This document shows, piece by piece, positions 2,290-63,204 of a stretch of 64,000 nt of DNA (position 1 is the stretch's first letter; each line of letters begins with the position of its first letter). This DNA comes from Eledone cirrhosa (Eukaryota): the NCBI GenBank assembly GCA_964016885.1, contig OZ024746.1, positions 33,728,001 through 33,792,000 on the forward strand, written 5' to 3'. Position numbers and translations under genes: made by a program. Below the pieces are notes generated by a model, which did no database searches, was not told the DNA's origin, and saw only the letters and a list, made by a program, of their open reading frames with translations.

Positions 2290-2293
<4 letters not shown>

Positions 2294-2498
2294 GTAGAAC
2301 AGTGGAAGGTAATATCCGTAGTGGTAGAGCACTCAGTCCATGGGTCGAGTTAGGTAGAAATGGTATCATAACAGTTAGTTCACCATACCGAGAACAATTG
2401 TTTCACCTTAGCGGATCCTCAGCTTGTAACCCGAGCCGAGGATCCGCTAAGGTGAAACAATTGTTCTCGGTATGGTGAACTAACTGTTGTGTAACCAC

Positions 2499-2505
<7 letters not shown>
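2290..2505. repeat. Fold-back mini-element with two minimal hammerhead motifs (family H1)
   Basis: ~51 bp perfect inverted repeat 2370-2420/2438-2488, inserted in (TA)n; one-arm copy at 17938-18071. Confidence 0.85.
2431..2470 (+). ncRNA. Minimal type I hammerhead ribozyme (U4C variant); mirror copy on the - strand at 2388-2426
   Basis: ccgag-CCGAGGA-t-cc-gctaa-gg-t-GAAA-caattg-TT-ctcgg, giving stem I ccgag/ctcgg and a palindromic stem III; the mirror arm has canonical CTGAGGA but an imperfect stem I. Confidence 0.7.
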
Positions 2506-6909: not shown

Positions 6910-7433
6910 GGTAAGTATACACACATATACACACACACACACATATATATATGTGCGTATATAACTATATCCGTATGGTGGCTATGTTGGTATAGGTGTG
7001 TTTTGACAAGGGGAATACAATGTACACAGTGAAATATAGTTACAATAAATCATATTTACCGAGTTAAATACTAAAGTATCTTAATAAACAATGCAGCGCC
7101 AAGAATCCTCTTTACGTAAATGAAATTTCGAAAGATTCCTATAATTACAAGTGATAGATTTCTGGCTGGTGTCAAAAGAATTCCAATGTTTGATCAGCTG
7201 GCAACTTACGTAAAGCAGATGCAATTACCCTCTATGTACATATTTGTACCAATATTTTTATTTGTTTCTTTTTATCTCTCTCTATCTCTCTTTATATCCC
7301 CACACACATACACACTCACCTTTATATGGATAGAGAGAGAGGGAGGGAGAGAGAGAGAGAGACAGAGAGAGAAAATTACTTAGTATAGAATGTCACCATA
7401 AATATTGTCATTCCAATATATATATATATATAT

Positions 7434-8895
7434 AATTAGTCCTTCATCAGTGATCTTCCAACCTTCATTGGTATTACTTCGCTTTAAAGATCATATACCT
7501 CTGGTTGGTGCGAGCAATAACTAAATAAAGTTATTGGGACACGTAAAATGATGAAGCGAGCGAGAAATGTAAACAAACATAGATGGTAATGCAACGGAAA
7601 GAGAGGAAGATAAGAAGAGAAGAGACAAGTCCGTGATATCTTTGAAATTTAAGCTCAGTGAAATCATAGACGAGAGGCAAAGACCATCCGACCTGGGCAA
7701 GATGTGAGCAAGAAAAGGATTTTACACAGGTCAAACGGGAGGAAGTGAGAGAGGGGGAGAAGCAGAGAGTGAGTGAGTGAAAGGGTGAGGAAGAGGCCAG
7801 CTGAGAGAGAGTGACTGGCTATACCTCTGGCTGGTAAGAGCAATAACTGAAAAAAAAGCTTATTGGGACAAGTAAATTAGGGTGAAGCGAGCGAGACATG
7901 TAAACAAACGGAGATGGTAATGCAACGGAAAGATAGGAAGCGAAGAGACAGGTTCGTGATATCTATGAACTTAAGCTCGGTGAAATCATAGACGAGACGT
8001 AAAGACCATCCGACCTGGGTGAAATGTGAGCGAGAAAAGGATTTCACACAGGTCAAACGGTTGGAAGTGAGAGAGGGGAGAAGCAGAGAGTGAGTGAGTG
8101 AAAGTGTGAGGAAGAGGCCAGCTGAGAGAGAGTGACTGGCACTGGGGGTAAAAGATGGTGTGAGATACAGAGAAAGGGGAAGCAGTAAGGAAGAAACAGA
8201 CAGGTCGCAGCGGAGGTAAAAATATAAATATATGAAAAATGGCGTGCTGCATGGTTGCACATGGGTTACATATGAATCAAATTAGTCCTTAATCAGTGAT
8301 CTTCCAACCTTCATTGGTATTTCTTTGCTTTAAAGATCATATACCTCTGGTTGGTGCGAGCAATAACTGAAGAAGGTTATTGGGACACGTAAAATAGGGT
8401 GAAGCGAGCGAGACATGTAAACAAACATAGATGGTATTTCAACGGAAAGAGAGGAAGAGAAGAGACAAGTCCGTGATATCTATGAACTTAAGCTCGGTGA
8501 AATCATAGACGAGAGGTAAAGACCATCCGATCTCGGCGAGATGTGAGCGAGAAAAGGATTTGACACAGGTCAAACGAGAGGAAGTGAGAGAGGGGGAGCA
8601 GCAGAGAGTGAGTACCTCTCGTCTATGATTTCACCGATCTTAAGTTCATAGATATCACGGACTTGTCTCTTCTCTCCCTCTCTTTTCGTTGCATTACCAT
8701 CTATGTTTACATGTCTCCCTCGCTTCACCCTATTTTACGTGTCCCAATAACTTTTTCTAGTTATTGCTCGCACCAACCAGAGGTATATGATCTTTAAAGC
8801 GAAGAAATACCAATGAAGATTGGAAGATGACTGATGAAGGACTAATTTTATTCATATGTAACCCATGTGCAACCACGCAGCGCACCATTTTTCAT
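7434..8895. repeat. Tandem (~520 bp unit) plus inverted non-coding element, family H2a
   Basis: atacctctgg recurs at ~7495, 7821 and 8341; ~8610-8895 is the reverse complement of ~8230-8518; flanked by (TA)n; homologous to 50586-51420. Confidence 0.9.
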
Positions 8896-8961
8896 ATATA
8901 TATATAATGTACGTAGTATAATTGTCGATCTTTCAAGCGATGAGAATATATATATATATAT

Positions 8962-11979: not shown

Positions 11980-12024
<45 letters not shown>

Positions 12025-12071
12025 AGTGGTCGTAGTCATAGTGATAGTAGAAGTAATACCCCTAAGCGTTA

Positions 12072-12552
12072 TTATTGTTCATTTATCTTGGGTTTGAATT
12101 TATCAATAAAATTATTTTCCTTGATTTTTCTTTTGATATCACTTGGGCTGTGTAATTTGTAGAATGGGAATATTATAAATATTCTCTGACCACATTTTGC
12201 TAGATGGTTACGTAGGGGTATCTGACGTACATTTGGGTCTCTGATTTGTTGTCGGTGTACCCGTGCACGTTCCGATAGTGCATTTCCAGTTTGATCGATA
12301 TATAGTTCTTCACAATTCGGGCATTTAATGCAGTAAATTAGATTTCTGCTTTTGCAGTTCATATTTGCATTTGGGGAATATTTTTCCAGATTTTGTTTTC
12401 ATATATTGACCGGCGTGTATGGATTGACATGTGCCGCATCGACTATCATTACATTTAGATACAGTGAGTGATTGGTCTTTGTTGTTAAGGTCAAACTTTG
12501 CTTTTGTTAGTAATTGCTTCAAATTTTTTGGCTGTCTTTTACTAAGAGTCAA
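12072..12552 (-). pseudogene. PLE zinc-linker plus GIY-YIG endonuclease remnant
   Basis: KCNDSRCGTCQSI linker; NLIYCIKC..C..LYIDQTG..L.ER..H; split by a frameshift. Confidence 0.85.
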
Positions 12553-12873
12553 AGATTGATCCGTGATTAAGCCTTTTAATTCATTACTTTGAGCAATGAT
12601 CGGTAGGTTACACCGTCAACAAATCAGAGACCCAAATGTCCGTCAGATACCCCTAAGTAACCATCTAGCAACATGTGGTCAGGGAATATTTATAATATTC
12701 CCATTCTACAAATTACACAGCCCAAGTGAATTCAAGAGAAAAATCAAGGAAAAGAATATTATTGATAAATTCAAACCCAAGCTAAATGAACAATAATAAC
12801 GCTTAGGGGTATTACTTCTACTATCACTATGACTCCGACCACTAACAACAACAACAACAACAACAACAACAAT

Positions 12874-12911
<38 letters not shown>

Positions 12912-12980
12912 AAAATTTTAGTAAGTAAGTCAATTTTCATAACTTTCTTATTTACGTCTTTCATATATATATATATAATA

Positions 12981-14100
12981 TAAAGGTTTACATATACATA
13001 AACATAAAGTCATAGATGTATGTGTTGCAACCGGTCACGTTGTAGCTCTATGAAGAATTAATAAATTAAATAATCAGAGCAATATATCATAAATCATGTC
13101 CTTAGAATTATTAGATAAAATATCTACCATTTCCTCACCCAATTAGCATAATTAACCATATAAAAAATCAATTAGTCCAAGCTATAAGAATAAAGGCTCT
13201 TATGAAGAAATTTCCGAAAGCGGCCTCTTCGCGGTGGCCCCAATAGAGTATTTATCCAACATTTCGACAGCGTGTAGTAACTGACTAAATATACCATCAA
13301 CCATACACAATTAGGTGCAAATTCAAACTTAGAAGAAATGTGTACATATCGTAATTATATCTCTACCATGGTTTCATCCGTATTTTTAGACATCCAATTA
13401 ATAGGATATGTCTGGAGTATCGGATTCATCAGGAGACAAACTCAAAATTAGACATTAAGTTTTCCAAAGTGATCGCGCCAAAAATAGATTAAAAAATGAC
13501 TAAGAATCGTGACGTGGCAGTGGTCAAGTTAGAAAGAATGTGATTAGTTGCTTACGGCGGGTAGGCTTGTTGCTAGAAAGCGCAGCCAAATATCGCCCAA
13601 TTGTATCTCAATCTAACGGGAGATTATTAAATATAAAAGTTCACATATACATAAACATAAAGTCATAGATATATATGTTGCAACCGGTCACGTTGTAGCT
13701 CTATGAAGAATTAATAAATTAAATAATCAGAGAAATATATCATAAATCATGTCCTTAGAATTATTAGATAACATATATACCATTTCCTCTCCCAATTAGC
13801 ATAATTAACCATACAAAAAATCAATTAGACCAAGCTATAAAATAAAGACTCTTATGAAGAAATTTCCGACAAATAACCGAAATATACTGACTATATTTAG
13901 TCAGTTTCTACACGCTGTCGAAATGTGGGATAAATACACTATTGGGGCCACTGCGAAGAGGCCGCTTTCGGTTATTTGTCGGAAATTTCTACATAAGAGC
14001 CTTTATTTTATAGCTTGGTCTAATTGATTTTTTATATGGTTAATTATGCTAATTGGCAGAGGAAATGGTATATATTTTATCTAATAATTCTAAGGACATG
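12981..14100 (-). mobile_element. Retrozyme-like HHR element family H3: ~1.4 tandem copies of a ~650 bp unit plus an inverted partial copy
   Basis: ~12981-13218 repeats at ~13634-13868; ~13890-14100 is the reverse complement of ~13096-13292; no ORF; flanked by (TA)n. Confidence 0.85.
13359..13437 (-). ncRNA. Type I hammerhead ribozyme with extended stem II and palindromic stem III
   Basis: gtctc-CTGATGA-atccg...agacat..atgtct...cggat-GAAA-ccatgg-TA-gagat. Confidence 0.88.
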
Positions 14101-14102
14101 TA

Positions 14103-14130
<28 letters not shown>

Positions 14131-14134
<4 letters not shown>

Positions 14135-14542
14135 CAAAGACATGTTTTGAGTTAGAAACTCAAATTGGTCTCTTAGAATAAATTAGCTCTAGGAAAGAGG
14201 TATTTCGGAGCCGTATAATGTAATTGAACAGAAAAGAAAAACGAACACAGACATATACATATATGTGTTCAAATCGTAAGGGACTGCTGATGAGCTAGAA
14301 TTTTGGTATTCCTCTTCACAATTAATATTGCGAAACAGTATTATCAAAACTGTCCGGGTGATTGGTAGTTACCACAATTCGGGTTTGTATTTATTTTTCT
14401 TGATTTATTCTTAAATTGAGTCTGGCAAACCCTATTGTCTGTAGTTAGTATTCTTTTAACCTTAGCGACCTGGTCCCTTACGATTTGAACACATATATGT
14501 ATATGTTTGTGTTCGTTTTTCTTTTTTGCTCAGTTACATTAT
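14131..14542 (+). mobile_element. HHR-bearing fold-back element family H4
   Basis: ~70 bp inverted repeat ~14215-14284/14473-14542 encloses an HHR; internally deleted homolog at 50110-50375. Confidence 0.8.
14284..14357 (+). ncRNA. Type I hammerhead ribozyme (GUC site)
   Basis: ctg-CTGATGA-gc..(34 nt)..gc-GAAA-cagt-attatcaaa-actg-TC-cgg; stems I and II are short or imperfect. Confidence 0.7.
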
Positions 14543-14551
14543 CTATCTATC

Positions 14552-14614
<63 letters not shown>

Positions 14615-14617
14615 TAC

Positions 14618-14667
<50 letters not shown>

Positions 14668-15401
14668 ATGTGTGTGGTGTGTGTGTTTATGTGTGCGTAT
14701 GTGTTTGTTCGTGTGTCTGTATATATCTGTATCTGTATCTGTGTCTCATTGAAATAGAGGTGTTGCTATGCGTCTTCTTTATCTCTTTTTGTCGATAAGA
14801 CATCACTTTACCACCGGATCTTTCCAGCGTATTGCGATCGCAAGTAATGCCTTTCAGCATTGGTGTTGTTATGATAAATACTAGTTACATGTGGAACACA
14901 ATGAGATAGACAATTCTTAGACGCAAGTATATGGCAACTATTTCATATAATAGCAAGTGAGCATATCTCTCATCTGATATGTTTCTAAAACTCCGGTTCC
15001 CTATTTCTAATGTCTTGAGATGCACCTTTATGTTAAAACATCATATTTCCACATTTCTTTCTGAATAAAGTGCCAACAATATTCAATATAACAGATCTAT
15101 TAGACAACCCGCTATATTGTTCAAACCACCGTACACTGCTTTCACCCAATCATCTTATTGTAAGCTTCTGTACACACCCCACACTGCCTTTCCACTTTTA
15201 CTTTTATGTACGGATACTTTTGATTAATTATATCATGTATTATCGAGTTCATTACAAAAGACATATATTTCTTTCATGTAATTCAAGTCTTGTGACATAC
15301 ACACACATTCATACGCGCGCGTGTATATATATATTTATTATATATAAATATATATGTGTATACATGTATGTGTATGTATGTATATACATATGTATTCTAT
15401 A

Positions 15402-15434
<33 letters not shown>

Positions 15435-15435
15435 A

Positions 15436-15467
<32 letters not shown>

Positions 15468-15563
15468 GTATATATATACGCATATATGTATGTATATATA
15501 CATATATATGTTTATATACATATTTATGTATATATATATATATATATGTATATATTTATGTAT

Positions 15564-15608
<45 letters not shown>

Positions 15609-15613
15609 GGAAC

Positions 15614-15661
<48 letters not shown>

Positions 15662-15664
<3 letters not shown>

Positions 15665-15808
15665 AACATGTATGACCCCGATGGCAGAGCTCAAGCCATT
15701 TCGACGGCTATTTCTGTCATAGATTTTCCTATTACCCACTCTACTACCATAAGTATTGAGTAATCTGGTGCGTTATGTTCCATCTGGTTGCTTACTACAA
15801 CTCCTTCG

Positions 15809-15812
<4 letters not shown>
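15662..15812. repeat. Family H5 mini-element (homolog of 45606-45806)
   Basis: Shared gaccccga.ggc.gagctcaagcc.tttcgacggcta and ttcctattacccact..actacc.taagtattgagta...ccttcgtta. Confidence 0.8.
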
Positions 15813-15896
<84 letters not shown>

Positions 15897-16342
15897 ATGC
15901 GTATGTGCGTAAATGTGTATGTTAAAAAAATATTATCGTATTTTCATTTCCATTGAATTTGAATATTAATAAGTCATTACTAATTTAAAACTACCATATA
16001 GTTGTTGGGAAATATTTAGAAAGCTAAAACTGATATAAAGTAAAAATTCGTATGCACATGACACAGCTACAAAACCAGACGCATCAAATAGAGACTCAAA
16101 CAACCGCCTAGGCACACATAAACATACGTATACATCTAGACCTCACAGAAATGAATAACATAATTGAAAAAAGACTAGAGCAATAGCAAGAAGCATAACA
16201 CCAAAAATATTGATTATAATGTAAATAACTAGAAGAGCGTAAAAATTTCACTAAATACATCCTAATATAATGAAATGAATTTTCTAATTAAATTTTCATC
16301 GTCATATATATATATTACATATACATGTATGTGAATCTGTCC

Positions 16343-16390
<48 letters not shown>

Positions 16391-16893
16391 TGTGTATGTG
16401 TGTGTGCGTGTGTCTCTGTATATGTGTGCATACATGAGATATATCTGTGTATGTGTGGAAGAAAAATTAAACACTATATATATATATATATATATAAAGT
16501 GCAAGTTTTATAAATTCGTATTTTTCTATTATGAATATTTTAAACTTATAATTTACTGAAGTTGTACAAATCTACAAATGTCTGGAGACATTGCTATAAC
16601 TTCTTTCGTTTAAGTTATATGGTGTATTAAAAGTATCTACAAAAATGTATGTATGGATGTATATGTATGGATGTATATGCTCAATGAAAAACAATACCCC
16701 TACTTCAATTGGTAAAGGCTACATATATTTGCGGCTTATTTGTTTACACTACATCGAACCAAAGCTGAGAATGCTAGATGCTCGAGCTGTGTATGTTAAA
16801 CCTGCTACATGCAATTTACAGAAGCCTCAATACACATACACAGAAATTCATACATACACACCTATATTTCATATATTTACGCACTCACACATA

Positions 16894-16936
<43 letters not shown>

Positions 16937-17153
16937 AATCGATCGACTTTCGTCAAATCGGACCGAGGAAACAATGTTTCCATTGGTCTTTCCAATTGCT
17001 AATACTATCTATCGGTCGCAACTCCAGGTAGAAGGAGCAACGTGAAATAAAGTGTCTTGCTCAAGGACATAACGCATCGACTGGTCCAGGAATCGAACTC
17101 ACAACCTTACGATTGCAAATCCAATTTTCTAACCACTCAGCCACACGCCTTCA
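16937..17153 (-). mobile_element. tRNA-derived CORE-like SINE
   Basis: - strand tggctgagtggttag (A box), gagttcgattcc (B box), gtccttgagcaagacactttattt (CORE-like motif). Confidence 0.75.
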
Positions 17154-17154
17154 C

Positions 17155-17195
<41 letters not shown>

Positions 17196-17207
17196 TATAT
17201 AGTGGTC

Positions 17208-17842
17208 ATTTATTAATTCTTCATAGAGCCACAAAGTGACCGGTTGTAACATATATAACTTTATGTATATGTGAACCTCTATATTTAATAATCTCCCGTT
17301 AGGTTGAGATGCAATTTGGCGATATTTGGCTGCGCTTCCTAGCAACAAGCCTACCCGCCGTAAGCAACCAATCACATTCTTTCCAACTTGACCACGGCCA
17401 TATTGTGATTCTAAGCCATTTTCGAATCTAATTTTGGCGCGATCGCTTTGGAATACTAAGTGTCTATTTTTGAGTTTGTCTCCTGATGAATCGGAATTCT
17501 GTGGATTTTCTCTTAATTGGATATCTAAAAATACGGATGAAACCATGGTAGAGATATAGTTACGGTATGTACACATTTCTTCTAAGTTTGAATTTACACC
17601 AAATTATGTATGGTTGATTGTATATTTCGTCAATTTCTACATGCTGTCGAAATGTTGGATACATACTCTATTGAGGCCACCGCTAAGAGGCCACTTTCGT
17701 TTGTTTGTCGGAGATTTCTTCATAGGAGGCTTTATCCTTATAGCTTGGTCTAATTGATTTTTTATATGGTTAATTATGCTGATTGGCAGAGGAAATGATA
17801 TATATTTTATTTATCTAATAATTCTATAGACATGATTCATGA

Positions 17843-17845
<3 letters not shown>
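17208..17845 (+). mobile_element. Family H3 monomer (~635 bp), circular permutation of the 12981-14100 unit
   Basis: Reverse-complement homology over the whole unit; its two ends are near-adjacent sequences in the tandem array. Confidence 0.85.
17478..17555 (+). ncRNA. Type I hammerhead ribozyme (family H3)
   Basis: gtctc-CTGATGA-atc...gat-GAAA-ccatgg-TA-gagat; core and stems I and III identical to 13359-13437. Confidence 0.85.
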
Positions 17846-17930
<85 letters not shown>

Positions 17931-17937
17931 CATATAT

Positions 17938-18071
17938 AGTGGTAGAACACTGGAAGGTAATATCCGTAGTGGTAGAACACTCAGTCCATGGGACGAGTTA
18001 TGTAGAAGTGGTTACACAACAGTTAGTTCACCATACCGAGAACAATTGCTTCAGCTTAGCGGAACCTCAGC
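17938..18071. repeat. Family H1 one-arm copy with degenerate HHR on the - strand
   Basis: Near identity to 2290-2422. Confidence 0.85.
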
Positions 18072-18912
18072 ATTACATAGACATATGTACACTATATTCT
18101 TATCTTTACATTGTACTTCAGTACATCAAAGGGTATGTACTACTATAGTAATACATACCCTTTTCAAAGACCTCTCTGTATAGATAAGAAATGCATAATC
18201 TGTAAACTAAGCCCCCATATTAACTATAAAATTAGAAACATAGTATATAGTATAAGATGTACTGAAGGACAATGTAAACATAAGAATATAGTGTACATAA
18301 TTGAGACAGCTCGTAGTATAGGAGAACGATTAAATGAACACAGGCGAGAGCTTCAAGATGGAAAAGATTCATCAGTACTCCACCAACATGCTAAAATAGA
18401 ACATCAGGGCAAATTAGAGAACACAGAAATAAAAATAATATCTACACACAGAAAAGACGCAATGTTTAGACAAATCACAGAGGCAATAAACATAAATGAA
18501 CTCCAACCAAAATTAAATAGAAAATACGAATGGAATAGCAACATCACAACTTACAATTAAGGAGAAAATCAAAACACACACACTTTGAACAAGCAATCAA
18601 CCAGTATCATGTAAATAAACAAAAAAATAAACAAATAAAACACACATAGTCACCCGGATCTAACACATGCGCAAACTAAGCACACAACACATACAAAAAC
18701 AAGATGGCGTAGTATAGAACAACGGAGAAGCACAAAACAAAGAGAGAATCCCCAGTGACAATATATGAACATCTGTCCGGTTGTGGAACAAACCAACCAA
18801 CCAACCGGAAATTTATAAATTCTTAAATTCATAAATTTAATTTATAATGAATTGGAGTGGGACGGTTGGTGCGTGTGTTTCTTATTAGCAACATGACCCT
18901 CCCAAAGTATAA
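18072..18912 (+). mobile_element. 5'-truncated Penelope-like element (GIY-YIG plus pseudo-LTR), same family as 59260-63176
   Basis: ORF 18111-18560 IVYSIRC..YIIETARSIGERLNEH; 3' part matches 62906-63176; ~18083-18128 is a short 5' inversion of ~18257-18298. Confidence 0.88.
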
Positions 18913-19467
18913 AAAACATATATATATATATATATTTGAAAAAAAGGAAAAGAATGACTTCACTTGTAGCGTTAAATAATTTGATTTAATTTTATAATAT
19001 TATAATATTATGAGTAGGTAGATCTAGTAGGTTCCTTGTTAACTTCGGTGGCAAGAATGTTAAAGATTCCTGGTTAACTTCTGTTGGAGAACTTTCTCGC
19101 ATTCGTCGGTGGCGATTGTCAAACTGATATCATGTTGTGTTGAGATGTGTGACTATATATAAGAGAGATTTGGATGTGTCTGGTCTATGGGGTGTCGTGT
19201 CAATGAGTGTTGATGATGATAAAGATTTGGAGGAATTAAAGCATACATACACACACACACGCGCGTACACACACACACATACACACACAAATATATACAC
19301 TCAGAAAATGGTGAGGTTGCAAGATAAGGGTGTTTCAGAAGGTGCTTGTAAAGATCCCCTTCTGGTGGTTTTATTTCATTAGCTGAACTTTGATGAGTAT
19401 ATAATGGCATAGCTGAATCAAGACTCTTAAATTTATAAAGAATATATTCTACAAATTTCTTGACTTT

Positions 19468-19952: not shown

Positions 19953-19955
<3 letters not shown>
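19690..19955 (-). mobile_element. Short 3' fragment of R4/Dong-like family A
   Basis: Matches 29110-29500 with deletions; (TTA)n on both sides. Confidence 0.88.
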
Positions 19956-20020
<65 letters not shown>

Positions 20021-20021
<1 letters not shown>

Positions 20022-23000
20022 TTTGAGTCTCAGTCATTGATGTTAGTTAACTGGAAAGTTTGTTGAAATGAATATCAAGCCACTACCTGCAGCCTCAGAT
20101 ATTCAGGACGTATCGGAGGGTTCTTGCTGTTCCCAGCAAGCATGCCTTTTGAAGCGTTCCAAAAAGCGTGAAGGGGCCAATTTTCTTTAACCATCCCTGG
20201 AAACTTTTTGAGATAGTTCCTAGTGTGCCTATGACAATCGGGATCACTTTGACATCATAGCAGTTCCAAATCCTTTTTACCTCCGACTTTAAGTCTTGGT
20301 ATCGGTTAATTTTCTCCCTCTCCTTCTCTTGCACTCTCGTGTCGAATGGGTAAGCCACATCCACAATTAGGCACGATCTTTTTTCTTTGTCCACAACCAC
20401 CAGGTCAGGTCTATTGTGTTCCAGTTTCTTGTCCCTCTGTATCCTAAAATCCCACAACACCTTCACCTGATCGGTTTCTATCACCGACTCTGGCTTATGC
20501 TCATACCACTTCTCAGAATGTGGTAAACTGTTTACTTTGCATAGGTGCCAGTGGATCACCCTGCCCATCACATCATGTCTCCAGCCCTTATAGTGAGTCT
20601 GGGCTAGGTGTTTACACTCGGATACAATGTGAGCCACAGTCTCCTCTCTCTCTCTCCACAGATCCTTCACAGTCGGCTAGCCTTCTCCTTGTAAATATGG
20701 TGTTTCAACCACTTAGATTTGAGGGGCTGCTCCTGCGCAGCCATTAACATTCCTTCTGTAGCCTTTTTAAGGTCTCCTCTTTTCAACCAGTTCCATGTCT
20801 GTGGATCTCTGAATTCAGTTTTCCCAAAGAAGGTACTATGAAGGGATTTTTCCTGAAGGCTGCTCTTTTTCCTTGATGTTATTTCCTCCTTGGACATCCC
20901 TTGGCCTATTGTCCCCCTCCTTCAGTACAGTTCTGATCATTGGCTCCTTACTATCAGTCACGTATTTGTGTAGGTTGTTTTTCTCCATCTGAACACAGTC
21001 CTCTATGCTGATAAGACCTCTTCCACCTTTAGATCTCCTCTAGTAGAGTCTATCGACATCACTCCTCTTGTGGAACATGTTGTAGATAGTCAATAGCTTC
21101 CTAGTCTTCTATCCATTTCTTTTTGTTCAGCAACATTCCATCTCAGAATTCCCGCACTGTACCTAATAATAGACACAGCTCGGGAATTTACTGCACTTAT
21201 GGCATACCTACTGTTCAGATGTGATTTTAATACGCTCCTTATTCTCCGAATGTATTCAGTTCTTATCAATTCCTTCATTTTTTTGTTCTTGATGTCATCA
21301 GCCTCCAGAACACCCAAATACTTGTATCCTTCTTCAGAGTCAATTTCCTTTATCATCTCACCCGTTGTTACCTGGATTCCGTTACTTCTGCTCAACTTGC
21401 CCTCTTCATCACAATGACTCCACACTTACTAATACCAAATTGCATACATATATCACTGCTGAAAATACGGACAGTGTCAACAAGCAGATCCAACTCCTTC
21501 TCACTCTTCCCGAAGAGCTTAAGATCGTCCATGAAGAGGAGGTGATTGATGATAAGCCCTCCCTTTCCCAACCTGTATCCTGCTCTCACTTTTCGCAGTA
21601 CACTGGTCAGAGGCATGAGGGCAAAGACACACAACAGAGGGGACAGACTATCTCTCTGGAAGATACCTCTCTTGATCTTCACGCCTCCCATGGATTCTCC
21701 AGTTGATGTTAACTCTGTTTCCCAGGACTTCATACTTTTGCGCAACAACTGTCTGATGTTATCTGCCACCTTGAAGATCTCCAGGCTTTTGGTGATCCAA
21801 GAATGAGGCACCATGTCAAATGCCTTTTTGTAGTCTATCCATCCCATGGCAAGACCAGTGTGTCTCCTCTTGCAATTCCTCATTACCATCTTATCAATAA
21901 GTAACTGGTCCTTTGTACCACGTGACTTCTTTCGGCATCCTTTCTGTTCGTCCGGTAACAAGTTTTTTGTGTGGAGGTGATGGTAGATTTCCTCAGATAT
22001 AATGCCTGTCAACAGTTTCCACATTACGGACAGACATGTGATAGGTATATAGTTGGTAACATCATTACACTTGATTCGGTCTTTCATTATCAGAACTGGG
22101 GTACCTTTTGTCAACCACTCTGGTACCTCACCTGACATCAAGCAGTCATTGAACATGGTTGTCAGTTTCGGGTGGAGGGATGTTATATTTTTAATCCAAT
22201 ACCCCTGCACACCATCTGGGCCTGGTGATTTCCAGTTGGTTAGTTTTTTGGCCTGCCCCTTAAGAGTTTCAACTGTGATACTCAAATCAGTTTGTTGGTG
22301 TGCCTGTTCACTAATCTCCTTCTGTACTGTCTCAATCCACACTGCCTGGTCATTATGTTTAACATCCTCCTCCCATATTCCTCTCCAGAATGTTTTAGTT
22401 TGTTCCGCCTCAGGGATCAAGTCGTTGCCTCTTTCTTTCCCCTCAAGCTGTCCAAACAGCATCTTCTGGTTGTTCTCGAACATGCGGTTCTGTCTATACT
22501 GACTGACTCTGTTCTCGTATCGCCTGATTTTTGCACTCTTTGCTACAATGCGTTGCTTCAGTTCCTCTATGATAATATTTAGCTTTTTCCTCCTAGTGTT
22601 GTACTTTATTTCCAGTCTATTTTTAGTGTCTATGTTTTTTAGAGTCCCATTCAGTAGGGACTCAAGCTTTCCAATGTCATTTCTCATTTCCTTGATTTGA
22701 CCACTCAGTCGTTTCTTCCACCTAGGATCTGATCTTTCTTGTCTGTTGTTTCCTCTCGCTTTTATACCAAGTAGTTTCCTCACCGTATTTGCTGTTGCTT
22801 TGAGGATATTGTTGCACTGGTGAAGGCTCCTCGCCTCAAGGTATGGGATGACTTTGTTTACCTTAGCTGTTGTTTCTTTTAACTTTTTCCTGTCTACAAA
22901 TCTTAGGTTCATAGGTCTCCCACTATCATTGTTCAATTCATCTACCACTAAGTTTAGGATATCAACCAAATCTTGTCCTAGCCCGTCAGAATCCATCTTC

Positions 23001-23808
23001 TCAGTGGCCGTATCTCTGTTCCAGGTATTATTTATCTCAGCATTCAGATCATTGTCTGCTTCGGGTGGTTCCTCCGTTCTCTCGAACTCTTCACCTTCAT
23101 TTCCCACTGGCTCGTTTGCCTGGCATACTCCACTCTCCATCTCCAAGCTAATCTCTCTGCTCATTTCCTCCAGTTCCAGCTCGCTTATCCACCCATTAGT
23201 TCTTATTACCCGAGCCTGCCCGGCCAATTTTTGTTAATCTAATTTAAATAGACCAATCTCGTTCCAGATGTTATTCATCCGTTTCCTATAGCCTTTCTCC
23301 TTGGGGTTACTCTTCAGGTAACATTGCATAACAGTTCTATACAATTCTTTCGTCCAGTTGGTTCTGGTCCCTTTCCTTCTTCTTCTTCCTCCTCCGACAC
23401 CAGCCGTATTTGGTTGACAGCTAGGTCCCTGCTGCTGAGCCAGGCAACACCTGTTGGGTGAGAGTCTGTCACATGACATTCTAGTGTCCATTTCGCCGTT
23501 ATTCGAACTGTTTAGGTTCGACATTTAAACACTCTTATCGAGGATTGGCGAATGTATGGTTACATAAGCACCGGTGACCTCATCACCTCCGGTGATTTCG
23601 TCACTCCCGGTGATTTTTGTGTGGCATTATCACGCTGTAGACGAACATAAATAAACAAACAAACAAACAGCCAAAAAAAACCCAAGAACGAATAAGCATA
23701 AGTTTCATTGTAATGTAATGTTTGAATGTCTGACTTAGTTTTTCCCTTCCCTTCTCTGTCCGTCTGTTTGTTTTTCTCTTCATTTTCCTTTTCTTTACGT
23801 TTTTCGTA
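20021..23808 (-). mobile_element. Full-length but disrupted R4/Dong-like RLE non-LTR retrotransposon (family A, copy 1)
   Basis: ORF pieces 23524-20095: KSPGPDG, YKKAFDMVPH, LLFMDDLKL (RT); RHD, RPDLVV..DVAYP..EK..RY (RLE); several stops and frameshifts; (TTA)n flanks. Confidence 0.92.
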
Positions 23809-23833
23809 ATTATTATTATTATTATTATTATTA

Positions 23834-26800
23834 CAGTTGCATTTATCTTGCCTTATGTTCATACGAGTTATCACCAAGTCACAACCAGTGACCTCAAGAG
23901 ACAACAAGGTCCGCCATGTTCAAGAAAGAACATACATATACACATGCATCTTTAGTGTTTAGACTTGTGATGTACTTATATTGACAGAATCTTCCTTAGT
24001 ATATGGGCAGTTCCCATTAGTACTATCTTTTGTATTTCTCCTATACGCGGGTTTCCTGGTATTTGCGATAAGTAATCATTAGACCCTTTAGGTATCATTG
24101 CCAGAGCGCCTACAACCACTGGTATTGTTTTAGTTCTCAATTTCCAGATTTTTCCAATTTCTATCTCAAGGTCCTTATACTTGCTCAATTATTCCAATGT
24201 TTTTATAGATACATTCTTGTCTATTGGAACAGATATATCAATTAGCAGGCATACCCTCTTTTTAAAGTCCTTCAATATTATATCAGGTCTATTTGCATCT
24301 ATTTTTCGGTCTGTTTGGATGCTAAAGTTCCACAAGATTGAGATGTGATCTTTTTCAAGTATTGGAGGTGGTTGATTGGGCAGGTCAAAATGCTTACACA
24401 TTATCCAATGTATGTATTGTGAGGCTCTGTCATGCCTGTTTAGGTATTCGGTTGGAGCTATAGGACTGCACATTGAAATTATATGGTCAATGGTCTCTGG
24501 TTGTTTTTTGCATACACGGCATAATGGGCTGCATCCATTTTTTATTAAGTTGGCTTCGTAATTTTTTGTTGGCAGACACTGATCTTGTGCTGATATAATC
24601 AGTCCTTCAGTCTCCGATTTCAGTCCAGAGGATGCCAACCACTGATGGGTTAAAGTTTTGTCGACATCAGGATTGTTAGCTCGCTCTGGGTATTTTCCAT
24701 ACAGAGGCTTTTCTTGCCATTTCTTAGCCAGTTTCTGTAGCAGTTCTTTCTTTGCAGTTACTTTTACCTGCTTTGCTTTTTCTGTGTTTTCCATTTCAGC
24801 AGTAAATGGGACTTCTGAAATTTGTAGTCCATTACTGTATCTTTGTGCATCTTTTGTAATTGAATACGATCTTTTGATGCTTTCGTGTTTCAAAACGAGT
24901 TTGATAATCCAATCATGTGATTCCCTTAGATATGTAGATAATCCAATTGTTGCAGTTTTCAAGGCAATGTCTAACTGGAATAACCCACGTCCTCCTTCTT
25001 TCCTAGGGAGATATATTCTATCTATATCTGCCTTAGGGTGATGCATTCTGTGCATGGTTAAGAATTTTCGAATTTTTGTATCGAGCCTACGGATCTCTGT
25101 GCTTGACCAGTTGATGACATTGTAACTGTAGATTACTACTGGTATGGCAAGCGTGTTTATGGCATCAATCCTATTCCTTGCATTCAATCTCGTTCTTAAG
25201 ATTGCTCTTACTCTGCGGTAACATTCCTTCCTTATCCTGTACCTCATTGTCGAGTGCTTGATTCCGTCTCCTTCACAAACACCTAGATATTTGTAAGTTT
25301 TTTCTTGATCAAGTTCTCTTATCACGTTCCCCCGATCAAGATTAATGTCTGAACTCTTCAGCAGCTTTCCTCTGGTGAACGTTGCTTTGGCGCATTTATC
25401 TAGTCAAAACTCCACTTTAATGTCATCACTGAACTGCTCCACAGTGGATAATAGCCCTTGCAATTGTTCATCATTTTTTTGCAAATAGTTTCAGGTCATC
25501 CATGTAGAACAAGTGATTAATGGTTTTGTCATAGACTTTATATCCATGTTTTGTTTCATTGAGCATTTTACTTAATGGTATAAGTGCTATGCAGAATAAA
25601 AGCGGTGATAAAGAGTCACCCTGAAAAATTCCACAATTAATATTAACTTCTCCAGCTTCCAGTGATTTTGTTTCACTATTCAAAAGGAGTGTCGTTTTCC
25701 ATGTCTTCATACTGAATGACAAAAACCTCCTGACAACGGGGGATATTTTGAAAATCTCTAAACATTTTTCAATCCTACTGTGTGGCAAACTATCGAATGC
25801 TTTTTTATAATCTTACCAATCAATCAATAGATTTTTGTGTCTAATATGACAATCTTCCAGTATCATTTTGTTAACCAGAAGCTGATCCTTACAGCCATAT
25901 TGAGCCTCGTTTACACCCTTTCTGCTCAATGGGAAATAGGTCATTTGTTATCAGGTGGTCATATGTGTATTCAGTTAGGACTGATGTTAACATTTTATAC
26001 ATTGTGGTCAAGCAAGTTATCGGTCTGTAATTTTTGGGATTGTTTGTCTCATCATTCTTCGGAAGCAGGAATGTAATGCCGTTAACTAGCCATGATGGTA
26101 TCTTTTCTGGCTCCTTAACTATTTCATTGTAAATTTGGGCTAACAGCTCATGAGACTCTGTGAAGGCATTTATCCAAAAGTTTTGTATTTTGTCTTTTCC
26201 TCGGGATTTCCATTTGCTGGTTTTTCTTAGAGCCAAGCGCAACTGTTCAACTGTTATATTTTCCCAAATTTGTTCCTCAAGGTAAGCTGTATCTTTCATT
26301 TGTCTGTCTATCCATGGGGCATGTATGTTATGAACTTTTTCTTCGGCCCAGATCTTTTCCCAGAACTCTTGCACTTCCTCTTTGGGTGGTATTGATTTAG
26401 CAGTTATTGTTGACTTACCAATTTTTCTGTAGAAGTTTCTTTGGTTGTTTTTGAACATATTATTGTCCTTATAGAATCTAGATCGTTTTTCAAAGCGCCT
26501 TATACGAGCAGCTTTGGCCGACACTTTTTGCTTGATTATTTCTATCAGCATGTCTATGTCACTTGTTGATTTTATACTGTACTTTTTTTTCAATTTTCTA
26601 AGTTTAGTTTGTTTAACATGTTCACCTACTTTATAGTTTGTTAAAATTTCTATGTCAGATCGGAGAAGGTTTATTTGGCGATTGATGTTCTCTTGCCAAG
26701 TAGATTTCTTGTGGGAATTCCTTTGTTTTTTCATCTTCACTCCACATAAGTGAGTGGTGACTTTAGCCGATGCATAATAGAGATGATTTAAATCAGTAAT

Positions 26801-27975
26801 GTTTAGTTTGTTTGTGATGATAATGTTTTTGAGAATTATATTAGTCTTGTGTATTATCTTTTGGTTCTGTGGATTGGCAGTATCGGTAGAGGGTCGGACG
26901 CCATGCTTTGACGCATAGAGTTACGGCCCTTGCCATTCTGAGTTCAAATCCCGCCGAGGTTAACTTTGCCTTTCATCCTTATGGGGTCGATAAAATAAAG
27001 TACCAGTAATACACTGGGTAATTGCTGGCCTTGTGCCAAAAGTAGAAACAATTATCTTTTGGTTCTGTTTGGAGTTCTGGATCTTAGGGAGGGTGTCTCG
27101 TTTCCCCATGTCAGATTCTTTCATTTTCATCCATTCGATCATAATTTCATCCTTCAAGTTGGCAAGTTCATTCTCATTCATTTCTTTATCATTTACGATC
27201 TCATTATTTTCATTTGGAGTTTCATCTTGAGCATGCACTCCCTCCACTTTTTCGATCATTTCTTTAATTTGTTCTGTTGCCAGTGATTCCGCCCCAACCC
27301 TGGGATTCGAAGTGTTACAATTTACCTCGTTTTCACTGACACATGTTTCATTTTCCCTTCGCTGACTTTGTGCTAATAGCTTGATCTGATTAATTTCTAT
27401 ATCAGTTAGTAACTTTTTTCTTACAATATTTCTTCGTATATTGGCTAGTTTGTTACTGTCAATATAGCCTCTGTTTTCGGGATGTTTCTTTTTCCAGTTG
27501 ATATATGTCTGTTCTGTATTCGATGTATTTGATGGGTAGTACATGGCAGTGTAGAAAGCCTCAAGGAGTTCTTTATTATCTTCCCTTGACCATTTTTCTC
27601 TCTTTTTCATTGGATTTCTTGGTGGTGAGCATGGAGGGCCAACAGTAGGAGTATTCCAGTTATGTGAGGTCTCCAGCTCCGAAGTGATGGGAAGGTTTGA
27701 ACCATTAGCTGATTTTTCAACCCCAGTCTGGTTCCTCTCTGAGGGACGCGGCCCTTTTTTATCCGGGTGACGGCCGATCCTGTATGAGATTTTATCATTA
27801 GACATTTACTTTATTTTGTCGCGTTTTATCCTTATCCGCCAAGGGGTAATCATTTCGTGTTATCACTTCTAGAACGAGTGTCAACCAAGACTAGAGGGGT
27901 CGTTCTCCCCTAGAGACACGGCTATTCCCCGCCGGCCGCCATCCCGGTATTTCTTGGTCACGGGGTTTTCTTTCT
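23834..27975 (-). mobile_element. Full-length disrupted R4/Dong-like RLE retrotransposon (family B) with SINE insertion
   Basis: ORF pieces 27805-23976: GIFQGDSLSPLLF, LFYMDDLKL, CRVC..ETIDHIISMC, RHD, RPDII..DIS.P; (TAA)n tail. Confidence 0.92.
26871..27050 (+). mobile_element. SINE family S1 with 18 bp target-site duplication
   Basis: attatcttttggttctgt at 26853-26870 and 27051-27068. Confidence 0.95.
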
Positions 27976-28945: not shown

Positions 28946-29030
28946 TCTTCTTCTTCTTCTTCTTCTTCTTCTTCTTCTTCTTCTTCTTCTTCTTCTTCTT
29001 CTTCTTCTTCTTCTTCTTCTTCTTCTTCTT

Positions 29031-29102
<72 letters not shown>

Positions 29103-32930: not shown

Positions 32931-32931
32931 A

Positions 32932-58646: not shown

Positions 58647-59413
58647 ATTACTTAATGATTCAGATGATTTTTATACAGCAAGGAAACCTCTTTCGTGTGC
58701 CCGTCCCTTAACACAACCTAGTCCTAAAGCATGGTCAATTCAAAGTACGATTAACGTAAATCTCTGGACCAATAGATGACCCAGCTGACGTTGTCGGACC
58801 AGGAAATGTATCTAGTTAAATCCTATACACAGGCCCTAATTCATCACACCATTAGCTAAATTATATTTTACATAAATTAAAACACAACTCTATGATCATC
58901 AATGACATCTTCACAGAAAGGTTTGCTTCGTCATACATAGGAAAATGTAAATTTAATAAAATCACAGACAAGTTTTTTATATATGGAAAGCCATTGCAGA
59001 TATTCTGCTCAACACGTCTTTTAATTTTTTGTTTAGTCTATACCAATATTAAATATGAATGAATGGGTAATTAACACTAACAAATGTGTGTTTCATTGTG
59101 GTAATTTAGTTTATGTACTTCTTTAGAAGAAGACACACCAAGGCCGGAAAATCAATTACATGTATATCTATATATCTCTCTCTCTCTGTATATATATATA
59201 TATTTCGTTTCTGAATTTGTTTAGCAAGATTCTTTATCTGAAAACGTGTGTTGAAACCGATATTCTTATACTTTGGGAGGGTCATGTTGCCAATAAGAAA
59301 CACACGAACCAGTTGCTTTCATTTCAATTTATTATAATAAATTTATAAATTTAGGAATTTATAAATTTCCGGTTGGTTGGTTGGTTCCACAACCAGATGG
59401 TTGTTTATATATT

Positions 59414-59456
59414 GTCAAAGTTCTTTCGTCACACATTCCGTGACCTCTTCAGTGAC
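59414..59456 (-). ncRNA. Minimal hammerhead ribozyme in the 3' pseudo-LTR
   Basis: gtca-CTGAAGA-g-gtcac-ggaatgt-gtgac-GAAA-gaac-TT-tgac. Confidence 0.85.
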
Positions 59457-62400
59457 TGGGGATTATTTTTTTTGTTTTTGTGCCTCTCCTTTGTTCTGTC
59501 CTACGCCATCTTGTTTCTGTGTGTGTGTTGAGTGCTCAGTCTGCGCATGCTCCACATCCGGGTGTCTGTGTGTGTTTATATTCATTTATTTATTTGTTTA
59601 TTTACATGTTACTGGTTGGTTGTTTGTTCTATGTGCGTGTGTGTTTTCATTTTGTCCTTAATTGTAAGTTGTGATGTTGCTGTTCCACTCATGTTTTCTA
59701 TTTAATTTTGGTTGTAATTCATTTGTTTATTGCCTCTGTGATTTGTCTAAACATTGTGTCTTTTCTGTGTGTAGATTCTATTTTTATTTCTATGTTCTAT
59801 AATTTACCCTTATGTTCTATTTTAGCATGTTGGTAGTGTACAGATGATTCTTTACTATACTGAAGGTCTCGCCAGTGTTCATTTATCCGTTCCCCTACTC
59901 TACGAGGTGTCTCACCTATGTACACTTTATTTCTATCTCTACATTGTCCTTCAGTAGATCTTATGCTATATACTACATTTCTAGTTTCACAGTTAATATG
60001 GGGGCCTAATTTTCAGGTTATACATTTCTTATCTATACAGGGGGTCTTTGAAAAGGGTATGTCTTGCTAATAAGTGTTTTTATGGAGGTACCTGGTTTTT
60101 CTACTATCTTAATATTGAGTTTATGTTTATCTAGGGCCCTTCTAAATTTGTAAGCTAATTCACCTCTAGGGGTGGTATCGATGAACATTACACTCTGGTA
60201 TTTATTGCTATCATACTATGAGTTTATTCTATTAGCCTTATTCCTAGTTCTTTCTATTCTATTCCAAAATGTGCTCCTATACAAGGGGCAGGTCCGATTT
60301 GTGTCATTATTTACCATTTTTTCCCATTTGGTTCTGGCTCCTCTATACACTCTGATTTTATCTCTCTGATTGTAACCAGAGAATTGCATACGGTGGATGA
60401 AGTGTTGTATGTGTCTCTCTAGTTCTTCGGGGTTGCACATGCGGGACACGTTTCTCATCACCCATACCAAATCAGCAATCAGTATGTTGATTTTGGTATG
60501 GTACGAAACAGCTGAGTTTCGGTGGATCAGATATTTGGAAGTCATGGGTTTGGCATAATGGGAATGGAGGATTTGTTTTTTTGTTATTAATGGTATCTAA
60601 CCAGAGCTCTGTGTCACCTACAGGTAATCGATTGTTGGGCTGTTTGCTTGGGTAGTCTATAGTAACTCTAATACTCTGGTGGATGGAGTTAGCTATTTGC
60701 TGGATGCTTTCCATTGTGTTTTTTCTCTAATTCCTGACTGTTCTCTAGTGGGTGTGTTTTAACTACGATGTTTATATCATCACAGTACATTATCAGGGAG
60801 TACATTATCAGGGTTAAGCTGTCTTCTAATTGTTCTTTAAGTTTAAGTTTAAGTCTACTGTCCCACCATACCATGAATAAGTTAGCTATGTCGCCTGCAA
60901 TGCTAACACCAATGGCTGATCCCTCCTCTTGGGCATATGTTTTTCCATTAAATTTGAATATATGTTCCTTAAGGGTTAATTTTATGCAGGCCCCCACCGC
61001 ATGTGCAATCATTTTCTTTAGTTCGTCGTGATTTTCGGGGGTCCGTATGGCTCTGGTCCACCCGTTCCATCTATCTGTGTGGGTTTTCTTGGCCATTGAG
61101 ATAATGGTAGGTGGTCTGCCTCTTGCTGGTCTTGTAGGGCACAGGCTGCTAAGGTCATATGTGTCTAGATAATTATTACTATAGGTAAGTTTAAGTAGGA
61201 GTCCCAGCTCACTAGTACCAATCCCACGGAACTCAACATTGCTCTCACTGATCATTTCTACGCATTTCTACACAGCAAAATCCACGCCAATAGATGGATA
61301 CAGGGACACAACATTCATACTACCTATTATGCAGTTTGTTAGGTCCCTATATCGGTTACTCCCGCCGATTCTGCTGAGGAGGTCCTCCGTGCTGTCACAT
61401 ACATCTGGGGACATTTCAATGATGGGGCGTATGATCAGGGAGAGGAAGTAGGACAGTCTGTAGTTACTAACAATGTTAGCTCCACAAACTGGCCGTGTTG
61501 GTGGTCCCGTGACAGGGTTCCTGCTCGTTTTATGGTCTTTTCGAAGCCCATACAACGCTGGCCCGTCATTGTTCCAGGCCTGGAAGTTGTTGGCAGTTCT
61601 TTTGTTGGGCTGCATTATATTTGTCCACATCACCATATGGGCATTGGGTTTTTTTCTCTATCCCCATGCTCTTGTGGTGTTACTTCTCCTGTGTTAGTGA
61701 TGCGGGGTTGCATTGCCTGCATGTAGTTTGGCAGACTGTCAACCGACAATATGCCAGACTTGTCTGTTGGAAAGCATGCTATCTCTCCATTACGCGAGCG
61801 CTGCATGAGCTTACGCAAACCATTTGCAGATGTTTCTCCCAGTTGCTGGGCCTCCATTCTATTATGCTTCTTGCTATACTGTTCTATAATATTTCTAAGT
61901 TTAGATCTAGCTATACTAAATTGTGCTACTGTCTGTTCATCGACCTGCGGCGGCAATTGCATGCGTTTGTTAAAAGCTAAAATCCTAGCGTGGACTCGTC
62001 GCAGGTCGAACGACTTATCGGAGGGATTATAAAAAGTAGAGTTCCAGGCTGCTTCTTTATGTGTACTAGTGCTATTGTTATTGTTAGTTGTGTTGTTTCT
62101 ATTTCTATTTCCACCAGCAGCCTCATGGTTGTTTCTATGTCTCTCATTATTACTCCTGTCTCTTTCCTCTGGCTCATTGTTATTATCTACTCTATTTTGT
62201 GTGTCTGTGTGTTCGTCTTGGTTATTTTCTCTGTCCATAGTCTCCCTTCTCCTTTCAATCCTATTACCTTCCCTTATTTCTGTGCTACTGCCATTACCTG
62301 TTTTCTGTGTCTGTGTATTTGTTAAGATTGTGGTGGTGGTGAGAAGCATTGAATGTGTGTTGTTGTTGTTGTTGTTTTTGATGTGTGCTGTTTTTGATGT

Positions 62401-62979
62401 GTGTTGTTGTTGTTGTTGTTATTGTTGTTCGTGTCTGAGTGTCTGTTGTTGTTGGGATGTGTGTTGTATATGTGTGTGCGTATGTTGTTACTTTTGTTTT
62501 TGTTTTTGTTTTTTAGGCTCCAACGTAATTTTGTAAATGATTTTTCTATTTCTGACAAACATCTAATCATATTTACCTTATTGAATGTGGCATACTTAGG
62601 CGGCAGTTGTAATACAGATAATTCATCAGAGTCGACCGTAGTGTTGCCGTATATATGTGTTGTTGTTGTTGAACTCATCTGTTAATTAGATGTCGGCTAT
62701 ATTTATACCGTCAATTTTGTCGGGCTGTCTATTGATATTCTCTAAAGATTCTTGATTTAGTTTTATTTGTTTAAGCCACTTTAGTTTCTTTTTAAAGTGC
62801 TTGTCACATTCTTGTACAATGTACTGTTCTTCAGAAAGTATTAGGTTTATAAATATTAGTTTTTCTCTTGGTGTGGTGATCTTAGTTATTTCTTGTATGA
62901 ACACACAACACACACACAGAAACAAGATGGCGTAGGACAGAACAAAGGAGAAGCACAAAAACAAAGAAAATAATCTCCA

Positions 62980-63022
62980 GTCACTGAAGAGGTCAAGGAA
63001 TGTGTGACGAAAGAACTTTGAC
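62980..63022 (+). ncRNA. Minimal hammerhead ribozyme in the inverted 5' pseudo-LTR
   Basis: gtca-CTGAAGA-g-gtca-aggaatgtg-tgac-GAAA-gaac-TT-tgac. Confidence 0.83.
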
Positions 63023-63172
63023 AATATATAAACAAGCATCTGGTTGTGGAACCAACCAACCAACCGGAAATTTATAAATTCCTAAATTTATAAATTTATT
63101 ATAATAAATTGAAAAGGAAGCAACTGGTGCGTGTGTTTCTTATTGGCAACATGACCCTCCCAAAGTATAACA

Positions 63173-63204
<32 letters not shown>

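What the first reader, a model, noticed from the sequence alone, without database searches (positions are those of the whole stretch)
12981..17845. Circularly permuted ~650 bp non-coding hammerhead element (candidate large retrozyme/circRNA family H3)
Seen: at 12981-14100 a ~650 bp ORF-less unit runs head-to-tail for ~1.4 copies and then folds back. At 17208-17845 a single monomer of the same family has different endpoints, and those two ends lie only ~15 bp apart in the tandem array, so it is a circular permutation. Both carry a full hammerhead. Its core, stem I (gtctc/gagat) and palindromic stem III (accatggt) are identical between copies, while the long stem II insert has diverged. Known: PLE-associated hammerheads with palindromic stem III act as dimers, and animal non-LTR retrozymes are tandem HHR repeats that yield circular RNAs, generally shorter than this unit. 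Inference: a non-autonomous element copied from a circular or multimeric RNA, probably by PLE reverse transcriptase.
Basis: partly seen in the sequence, partly recalled or inferred. Interest (0 to 1): 0.85.

Follow-up and report, generated by a model that had tools for sequence, protein, structure and literature searches.

The report
Penelope-hitchhiking hammerhead mini-element in octopus
A 660-base non-coding repeat carrying a predicted self-cutting RNA is scattered in many copies through octopus-type DNA, and its insertions have the layout known from Penelope jumping genes, so it is likely a small passenger copied by their enzyme from a circular or tandem RNA, which is a known kind of element.

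Summary
Observation confirmed. A 653-bp unit runs 1.39 copies (12977-13882), then folds back through a small hairpin into a ~200-bp inverted arm. The monomer at 17208-17847 is 85.6% identical, and its ends lie 15 bp apart on the unit. Each locus holds ONE type I hammerhead, so neither could cut out a circle alone; the monomer's stem II is damaged. Related sequence is abundant in public DNA runs (2,602-3,401 contigs per run) and covers every bin of the unit, so there is no obligatory linear terminus. The layout (head-to-head arm with junction palindrome, one-sided tail, (TA)n target, probable short target duplication) is the published Penelope-like element (PLE) insertion layout, and decayed coding PLEs lie in the window. 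Best reading: a non-autonomous PLE passenger that works like a non-LTR retrozyme. Size is not novel (published consensus 51-972 bp), and a PLE origin is already proposed in print. Circular RNA and cleavage are unshown (no RNA run, no genome held). This scan has reported the same class many times on other DNA of this and other octopus genomes.

The parts
12977..13629 (-). Complete 653-bp unit of the direct arm; its outer 3' end (the 'long' or tailed end) abuts (TA)n at 12977; lacks an 11-bp stretch at ~13217 that the other copies hold
13630..13882 (-). Partial upstream copy (0.39 unit), 95% identical to the first; inner 5' end of the direct arm
13883..13905 (.). Head-to-head junction with an 8-bp hairpin palindrome (13886-13905) and about 3 filler bases
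13892..14100 (+). Inverted arm (unit positions 13293->~13095), ending at the 'short' 3' end in (TA)n
13358..13438 (-). Type I hammerhead: 6-bp stem I, CUGAUGA, 49-nt extended stem II (5 bp, internal loop, distal helix), GAAA, palindromic stem III ACCAUGGU; predicted cut after GUA at 13364
17208..17847 (+). Circularly permuted monomer (unit positions 13719->13082), 15 nt short of one full unit, 3' end in (TA)n near the 'short' end
17477..17556 (+). Type I hammerhead of the monomer; core intact, 5' arm of stem II altered; predicted cut after 17550
17195..17206 (+). Left copy of a probable target-site duplication (TA run + GTGGT); could instead be a stub of the neighbouring family's end
17932..17943 (+). 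Right copy of the same 12-mer, which is the outer end of a neighbouring hammerhead-family arm
59189..63176 (-). Decayed coding PLE (RT plus C-terminal GIY-YIG-type endonuclease) with the same direct/inverted, tailed layout in (TA)n; shows the type of helper, shares no DNA similarity with this unit

Best explanation
This is a high-copy, non-coding ~660-nt repeat with one type I hammerhead motif per unit, likely a non-autonomous passenger whose RNA is reverse-transcribed into (TA)n tracts by the enzyme of a Penelope-like element. Shown: unit, permutation, ribozyme motif, abundance, insertion layout. Inferred mechanism: (1) a more-than-unit copy is transcribed; (2) the hammerheads, probably as dimers through the palindromic stem III, would cut it into units that may be ligated into circles; (3) a PLE endonuclease nicks (TA)n and the RT starts at preferred internal sites 270-390 nt downstream of the cut site; (4) copying passes through the uncut ribozyme site and stops at variable points, giving permuted monomers and 1.4-mers; (5) priming from the second DNA end, or snap-back, adds the inverted arm. 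The template must be closed or more than unit length. My split is about 45% circle, 40% uncut tandem transcript, 15% RT jumping between linear monomer ends.
For: Both long copies cross the predicted cut site intact, and the direct arm is 1.39 units. All 29 of 29 bins of one unit are covered in X3, X8 and X9, and an organism-B contig bridges 13540-13813 across the array joint and the monomer gap. Abundance: 3,401 of 17.1 M, 3,262 of 16.5 M and 2,602 of 16.3 M contigs laid. Layout equals the published PLE layout: partial tandem plus adjacent inverted 5'-truncated copy and one-sided tail (PMC8557442); head-to-head with junction palindrome and 8-10-bp TSD (PMC3846280); AT-rich nicking and internal RT starts (PMC11167929). 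Two of the three 3' ends lie within ~12 nt of each other (13095, ~13083). GTGGT follows only 3 of 221 TA-tract ends in the window: the monomer's left flank and the two ends of the neighbour family. Coding PLE remains lie at 11990-12878, 18146-18915 and 59189-63176. In summed contig depth the block around the short 3' end is several-fold deeper in X3 and X5, as 5' truncation predicts; this measure is biased by contig fragmentation. A distal stem II pair varies on both sides in reads (13391 C>T, 109 of 221 reads in X8; 13410 G>A, 65 of 152 in X7; phase not shown).
Against: Only one hammerhead per locus; no locus with two complete units was seen. Stem I forms in only 0.17-0.34 of the predicted ensemble of the array circle and ~0 in the monomer. 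In Li et al. only 1 of 9 Xenopus dimers cut in vitro, and in the Anolis PLE cleavage was not needed for insertion. No autonomous partner sharing the unit's ends was found, but only the 64-kb window could be searched. The two arms overlap by ~130 nt rather than fitting end to end, so simple twin priming on one RNA does not explain them. The 106-118-nt tail is longer than the published 30-40 nt. Whole-unit fold z is modest (-2.1 and -2.7, 30 shuffles).
Confidence: 0.75

Rival explanations
1. The unit is the pLTR plus 5' region of a coding PLE whose ORF was deleted in one lineage. Copies arise from linear tandem read-through transcripts with internal RT initiation; no circular RNA exists and the hammerhead is an inherited passenger.
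For: Insertion layout is that of coding PLEs. Xenopus retrozymes match pLTRs in 24 of 57 families. Internal initiation and dispensable cleavage are shown for the Anolis PLE. One ribozyme per locus. This overlaps with the best explanation on mobilisation and differs on template and ribozyme role.
Against: No coding remnant in the unit (11 PLE proteins against both copies: best E 0.72). No DNA match to the window's coding PLEs (nhmmer and blastn). The monomer stops 15 nt before its own start, which a circle explains directly (about 5% by chance, n=1, my estimate).
Confidence: 0.35
2. Most family members are ordinary truncated ends of an autonomous PLE not present in this window; the closed 653-bp unit is a local rearrangement.
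For: Some well-supported loose ends leave the unit at fixed places (13531: 448, 351, 267 reads in X7, X8, X9; 13507; 13524), and their sequences could not be followed. The 13700-13840 block is deeper than the rest.
Against: Two copies 14% apart both carry the closed order, which also occurs in another organism's contig. RAD loose ends can be single loci or ligation artefacts at AATT sites (my reading).
Confidence: 0.12
3. A DNA-level satellite or fold-back element spread by recombination, or an assembly artefact.
For: Microsatellite-rich context; inverted arms are unstable. The second copy and the inverted arm share a 1-bp deletion, which suggests conversion between them.
Against: Dispersed copies, conserved ribozyme core, 4-5% substitutions between arms (not a collapsed artefact), (TA)n-anchored 3' ends and the probable TSD.
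Confidence: 0.05

Closest known systems
Metazoan non-LTR retrozymes (Cervera and de la Pena 2020, PMC7229834; Li, Clavereau and Pollet 2026, 10.64898/2026.07.22.740005)
   Same: Non-coding unit with a type I hammerhead, low GC (34-35%), high copy, monomers and tandem forms, size inside the 51-972-bp range; PLE mobilisation is proposed in both papers.
   Different: No locus here has two complete hammerhead units; stem II is 49 nt instead of about 4 bp plus a loop; circular RNA not shown; cephalopods not covered in the passages read; the inverted arm, tail and TSD are read here from the insertion.
Endonuclease-bearing PLE insertions (PMC3846280; PMC8557442; PMC11167929; hammerheads in pLTRs, PMC4209133)
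   Same: Partial tandem, head-to-head inverted 5' arm with junction palindrome, one-sided tail, (TA)n target, short TSD, hammerhead with palindromic stem III.
   Different: No ORF; the whole repeating unit is 660 nt; tail 106-118 nt rather than 30-40.
Putatively non-autonomous Chlamys PLEs such as MRC1 (PMC8557442; active pair in PMC9977147)
   Same: Non-coding, pLTR-forming, multicopy head-to-tail inserts, microsatellite target, 5' truncation.
   Different: Algal, mostly without canonical hammerheads, and matched to an autonomous family at the 3' end, which was not found here.

Membership tests
Non-LTR retrozyme | Type I hammerhead with intact core in the unit | tested here: met
   Rfam models miss it
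Non-LTR retrozyme | [quoted passage not shown] 2026) | tested here: not met
   One hammerhead in the array and one in the monomer; other loci of the family could not be examined
Non-LTR retrozyme | Non-coding unit within the known size range | tested here: met
   Sense ATG ORFs 41-47 aa, no PLE protein match; range 51-972 bp
Non-LTR retrozyme | Expressed as linear and circular monomer RNA | not testable with these tools
   No RNA holder listed
Non-LTR retrozyme | Self-cleavage | not testable with these tools
   Fold only: active fold costs 2.7 kcal/mol in the array copy and 11.2 in the monomer
Non-autonomous Penelope-like element | Partial tandem with adjacent inverted 5'-truncated copy | tested here: met
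Non-autonomous Penelope-like element | Tail at one end only | tested here: met
   Direct arm ends 118 nt beyond the inverted arm; longer than published; one locus
Non-autonomous Penelope-like element | Microsatellite or AT-rich target and short TSD | tested here: met
   All three 3' ends in (TA)n; 12-mer on both sides of the monomer, TSD reading probable but not unique
Non-autonomous Penelope-like element | 3'-end similarity to an autonomous family | tested here: inconclusive
   None among the window's coding PLE pieces; genome not held
Autonomous PLE | ORF with RT and GIY-YIG endonuclease | tested here: not met

The most novel reading that the evidence does not exclude
These two loci are DNA fossils of a Penelope-type reverse transcriptase running around a 660-nt circular RNA. 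The monomer is one lap that halted 15 nt before its own priming site, and the array is a 1.4-lap copy joined head-to-head to a second copy primed from the other DNA end. The ribozyme has an unusually long, structured stem II, and A-to-I edits may have been written back into some copies. This would give an octopus circular-RNA parasite with a directly testable RT template.
Probability: 0.3. Interest if true: 0.65.

Novelty: new member of a known kind. Interest (0 to 1): 0.36.

Why it matters
How animal retrozymes get into DNA is proposed in print (PLE enzymes, circular template) but, in the passages I read, not shown. This family supplies insertion footprints that fit PLE enzymes, defined candidate start sites and a defined ribozyme for an in vitro test with circular versus tandem templates. 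It also shows that Rfam misses long-stem-II hammerheads, so such elements are undercounted. It is one more family among many that this scan has logged in octopus genomes, and it adds little beyond them except the near one-lap monomer with a probable TSD.

Tried and rejected
Whole genome: none held, so the endpoint plot could not be made. RNA: no RNA holder listed; no evidence either way. Rfam: 0 matches at gathering over 64 kb, and no hammerhead among 88 matches at E up to 10 in 12950-18100. Pattern scans: 0 in metagenome contigs and 0 in viral contigs. Coding remnant: none. Link to the window's coding PLEs: none. Pfam: 1 weak RVT_1 hit (E 0.0086) among 4 PLE pieces. RAD read ends as element ends: rejected, since the main ones sit at AATT sites. 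Joints 13882->13220-13249 (217 reads in X8 and 135 in X9 among listed rows; 3 rows not shown) are DNA and mark where I cut the stretch; they are not evidence of an RNA circle. Summed contig depth was not used as copy number. RNA-editing scar: sense A>G variable sites exceed sense T>C (X8 39/187 vs 22/252, p 0.0004; X9 34 vs 24, p 0.010; X3 17 vs 11, p 0.050; X5 11 vs 11, p 0.51). But the transversion control leans the same way (OR 1.5-2.35, p 0.055-0.15), X8 and X9 probably sample the same loci, and array vs monomer shows 21 A/G vs 18 C/T differences: a hint only. RNAalifold of the two hammerheads gave no compensatory pair and not the ribozyme fold (0 of 19 pairs). End-to-end twin priming: rejected for this locus because the arms overlap. 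Earlier-finding look-ups by sequence and by relatives gave nothing.
Full report
Observation. The + strand holds 12977-13629 followed by a second copy 13630-13882 (95.0% over 241 columns, period 653), then a reverse-complement copy of unit positions 13293 to about 13095 at 13892-14100. The monomer 17208-17847 aligns to 13719->13082 at 85.6%, so its two ends are 15 nt apart on the unit. My descriptor found three hammerhead-like motifs in the window. The two in this family score 14 and 13; 40 Markov copies gave none at 12 or more. The array carries only one, on the - strand (13438-13358); the monomer carries one on the + strand with GUA ending at 17550. Core, stems I and III and the 3' strand of stem II are unchanged in 36 positions, against 66 substitutions in 625 overall. 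Rfam detects neither.

Ribozyme. In the array copy stem II is a 5-bp helix, an internal loop and a distal helix (-12.4 kcal/mol), and the active fold costs 2.7 kcal/mol locally. In the circular unit stem II pairs have probability 0.87-0.98 and stem I 0.17-0.34. In the monomer the 5' arm has 10 substitutions in 24 nt, the active fold costs 11.2 kcal/mol, and neither stem forms in the whole-unit ensemble. Reads show both partners of one distal pair varying (13391 C>T, 13410 G>A), consistent with a compensatory change, though not phased. The 8-nt stem III is a perfect palindrome, as in hammerheads that act as dimers (PMC4209133, parts 1-2 of 4 read).

Host and abundance. No genome is held. The closest named relatives of a neighbouring RT are Octopus vulgaris proteins (64% and 70%; 2 of 11 hits named), so the host is octopus-like. 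Six of nine listed runs hold part of the stretch (best share 0.33) and none is on record as RNA. Laid at 80% likeness: X1 3,401 of 17,142,217 contigs, X2 3,262 of 16,517,967, X4 69 of 8,254,286, X7 4,089 of 12,467,656 reads; X3 2,602 of 16,285,364, X8 3,032 of 12,785,554, X9 2,598 of 12,647,150, X5 25 of 6,943,267. X1-X3 are one sample. On one contiguous unit (13220-13882), 29 of 29 bins are covered in X3, X8 and X9, and 23 of 29 in X5. A 276-nt X4 contig bridges 13540-13813, which includes the array joint and the monomer gap. So no position is an obligatory terminus. Summed contig depth in X3 is 124,000-419,000 over 13703-13840 and 3,000-78,000 elsewhere, with the same shape in X5. That fits preferred 3' ends plus 5' truncation, or a block shared with other families. 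The measure is inflated by contig fragmentation and is not a copy number; thousands of copies is my inference.

Insertion anatomy. In ribozyme sense both outer ends of the array are 3' ends in (TA)n: the direct arm ends 387 nt past the cut site and the inverted arm 269 nt; the monomer ends about 281 nt past it. The inner junction is an 8-bp hairpin. The monomer's left flank ends in a TA run plus GTGGT, and the same 12-mer begins the neighbouring element on the right. GTGGT follows 3 of 221 TA-tract ends in the window, the other two being ends of that neighbouring family. I read this as a target duplication; a 7-nt stub of the neighbour family is the alternative. These are the published marks of endonuclease-bearing PLEs: partial tandem, adjacent inverted truncated copy and 30-40-bp one-sided tail (PMC8557442, passages and section 11); head-to-head arms with junction palindromes and 8-10-bp TSDs (PMC3846280, passages); AT-rich nicking and internal RT starts that define the tail (PMC11167929, parts 1-2 of 4). 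A decayed coding PLE at 59189-63176 has the same layout, with its direct arm ending some 60-70 nt beyond the inverted one. By my reading its Cys linker and CCHH-like residues suggest the Neptune type; no tree was built. It shares no DNA similarity with this unit, and 11 PLE proteins find nothing in the unit.

Mechanism. Both long copies pass through an intact cut site and one exceeds a unit, so the template was a circle, an uncut tandem transcript, or a linear unit with an RT jump. The monomer stopping 15 nt short of its own start favours a circle slightly (one case). Against it, neither locus has two ribozymes, cleavage was dispensable for the Anolis PLE in vitro, and only 1 of 9 Xenopus dimers cut. 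The two arms overlap in sequence by about 130 nt, so they came from two RNAs, from strand displacement, or from snap-back with later deletion. A sense A>G excess among read variants is only a hint of editing, because the transversion control leans the same way.

Comparison and novelty. Cervera and de la Pena 2020 (PMC7229834, passages and Discussion) show circular RNAs from such repeats in coral, mussel and axolotl and name PLEs as likely mobilisers. Non-autonomous PLEs are described in Chlamydomonas (passages). Searches for octopus + hammerhead ribozyme + Penelope and for retrozyme + cephalopod listed only PMC8557442, and hammerhead + extended stem II + Penelope listed none; the library lacks most subscription papers. 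The locus fails the two-ribozyme definition of an active retrozyme, so I file it as a non-autonomous PLE-type element that works like a retrozyme. The scan's notes (unchecked) report the same class for other families in this and other octopus genomes. They gave me the two-ends and editing leads, which I tested on this locus only.

Verdict. Real, correctly described, and a new family of a known kind. Interest 0.36; 0.65 if the circular template were shown.

Noticed in passing
window 17937-18915: An arm of another hammerhead-like family (17937-18075, - strand) abuts a short inverted endonuclease piece (~18084-18135) and a PLE endonuclease plus pLTR arm (18146-18915, +); it may be one chimeric two-armed insertion joining a non-coding family to a coding PLE.
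   Followed up: partly
window 2290-2502: Small two-armed insertion of that same family in (TA)n, with two different outer ends about 65 nt apart and a palindromic stem III-like motif.
   Followed up: partly
window 59189-63176: Nearly full but decayed coding PLE (stops, frameshifts) with inverted 5' pLTR, one-sided tail and a hammerhead-like motif at 59452 (-) / 62984 (+).
   Followed up: partly
window 11990-12878: Fold-back insertion (263-nt arms, 95%) holding a weak PLE endonuclease match at 12383-12081, directly left of the array.
   Followed up: partly
window 14200-14560, 7421-8905, 50576-51429: Further inverted-repeat insertions in (TA)n with CUGAUGA cores, probably other hammerhead families; 14103-14546 resembles 50082-50379.
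   Followed up: no
window 13474-13482 and ~13545-13555 (- strand); 17435-17443 and ~17367-17372: Upstream of the hammerhead the unit holds an E2F-like TTTGGCGCG and a CCAAT-like box (motif names recalled); possible internal promoter, untested.
   Followed up: no
window 13369 (-), 17545 (+): The stem III palindrome contains ACCATGG, a strong start-codon context (recalled), followed by a stop after four codons in both copies; the Anolis PLE ORF also starts within its hammerhead.
   Followed up: partly
window ~17040-17150 (- strand): Looks like a tRNA-derived SINE (judged by eye); a ~185-bp repeat also occurs at 966, 10056, 26871, 50382 and twice head-to-head at 58264-58646.
   Followed up: no
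window 19955-32931 and 33132-38740: Several non-LTR retrotransposon copies, including an intact-looking 1195-codon endonuclease-RT frame at 35153-38740.
   Followed up: no
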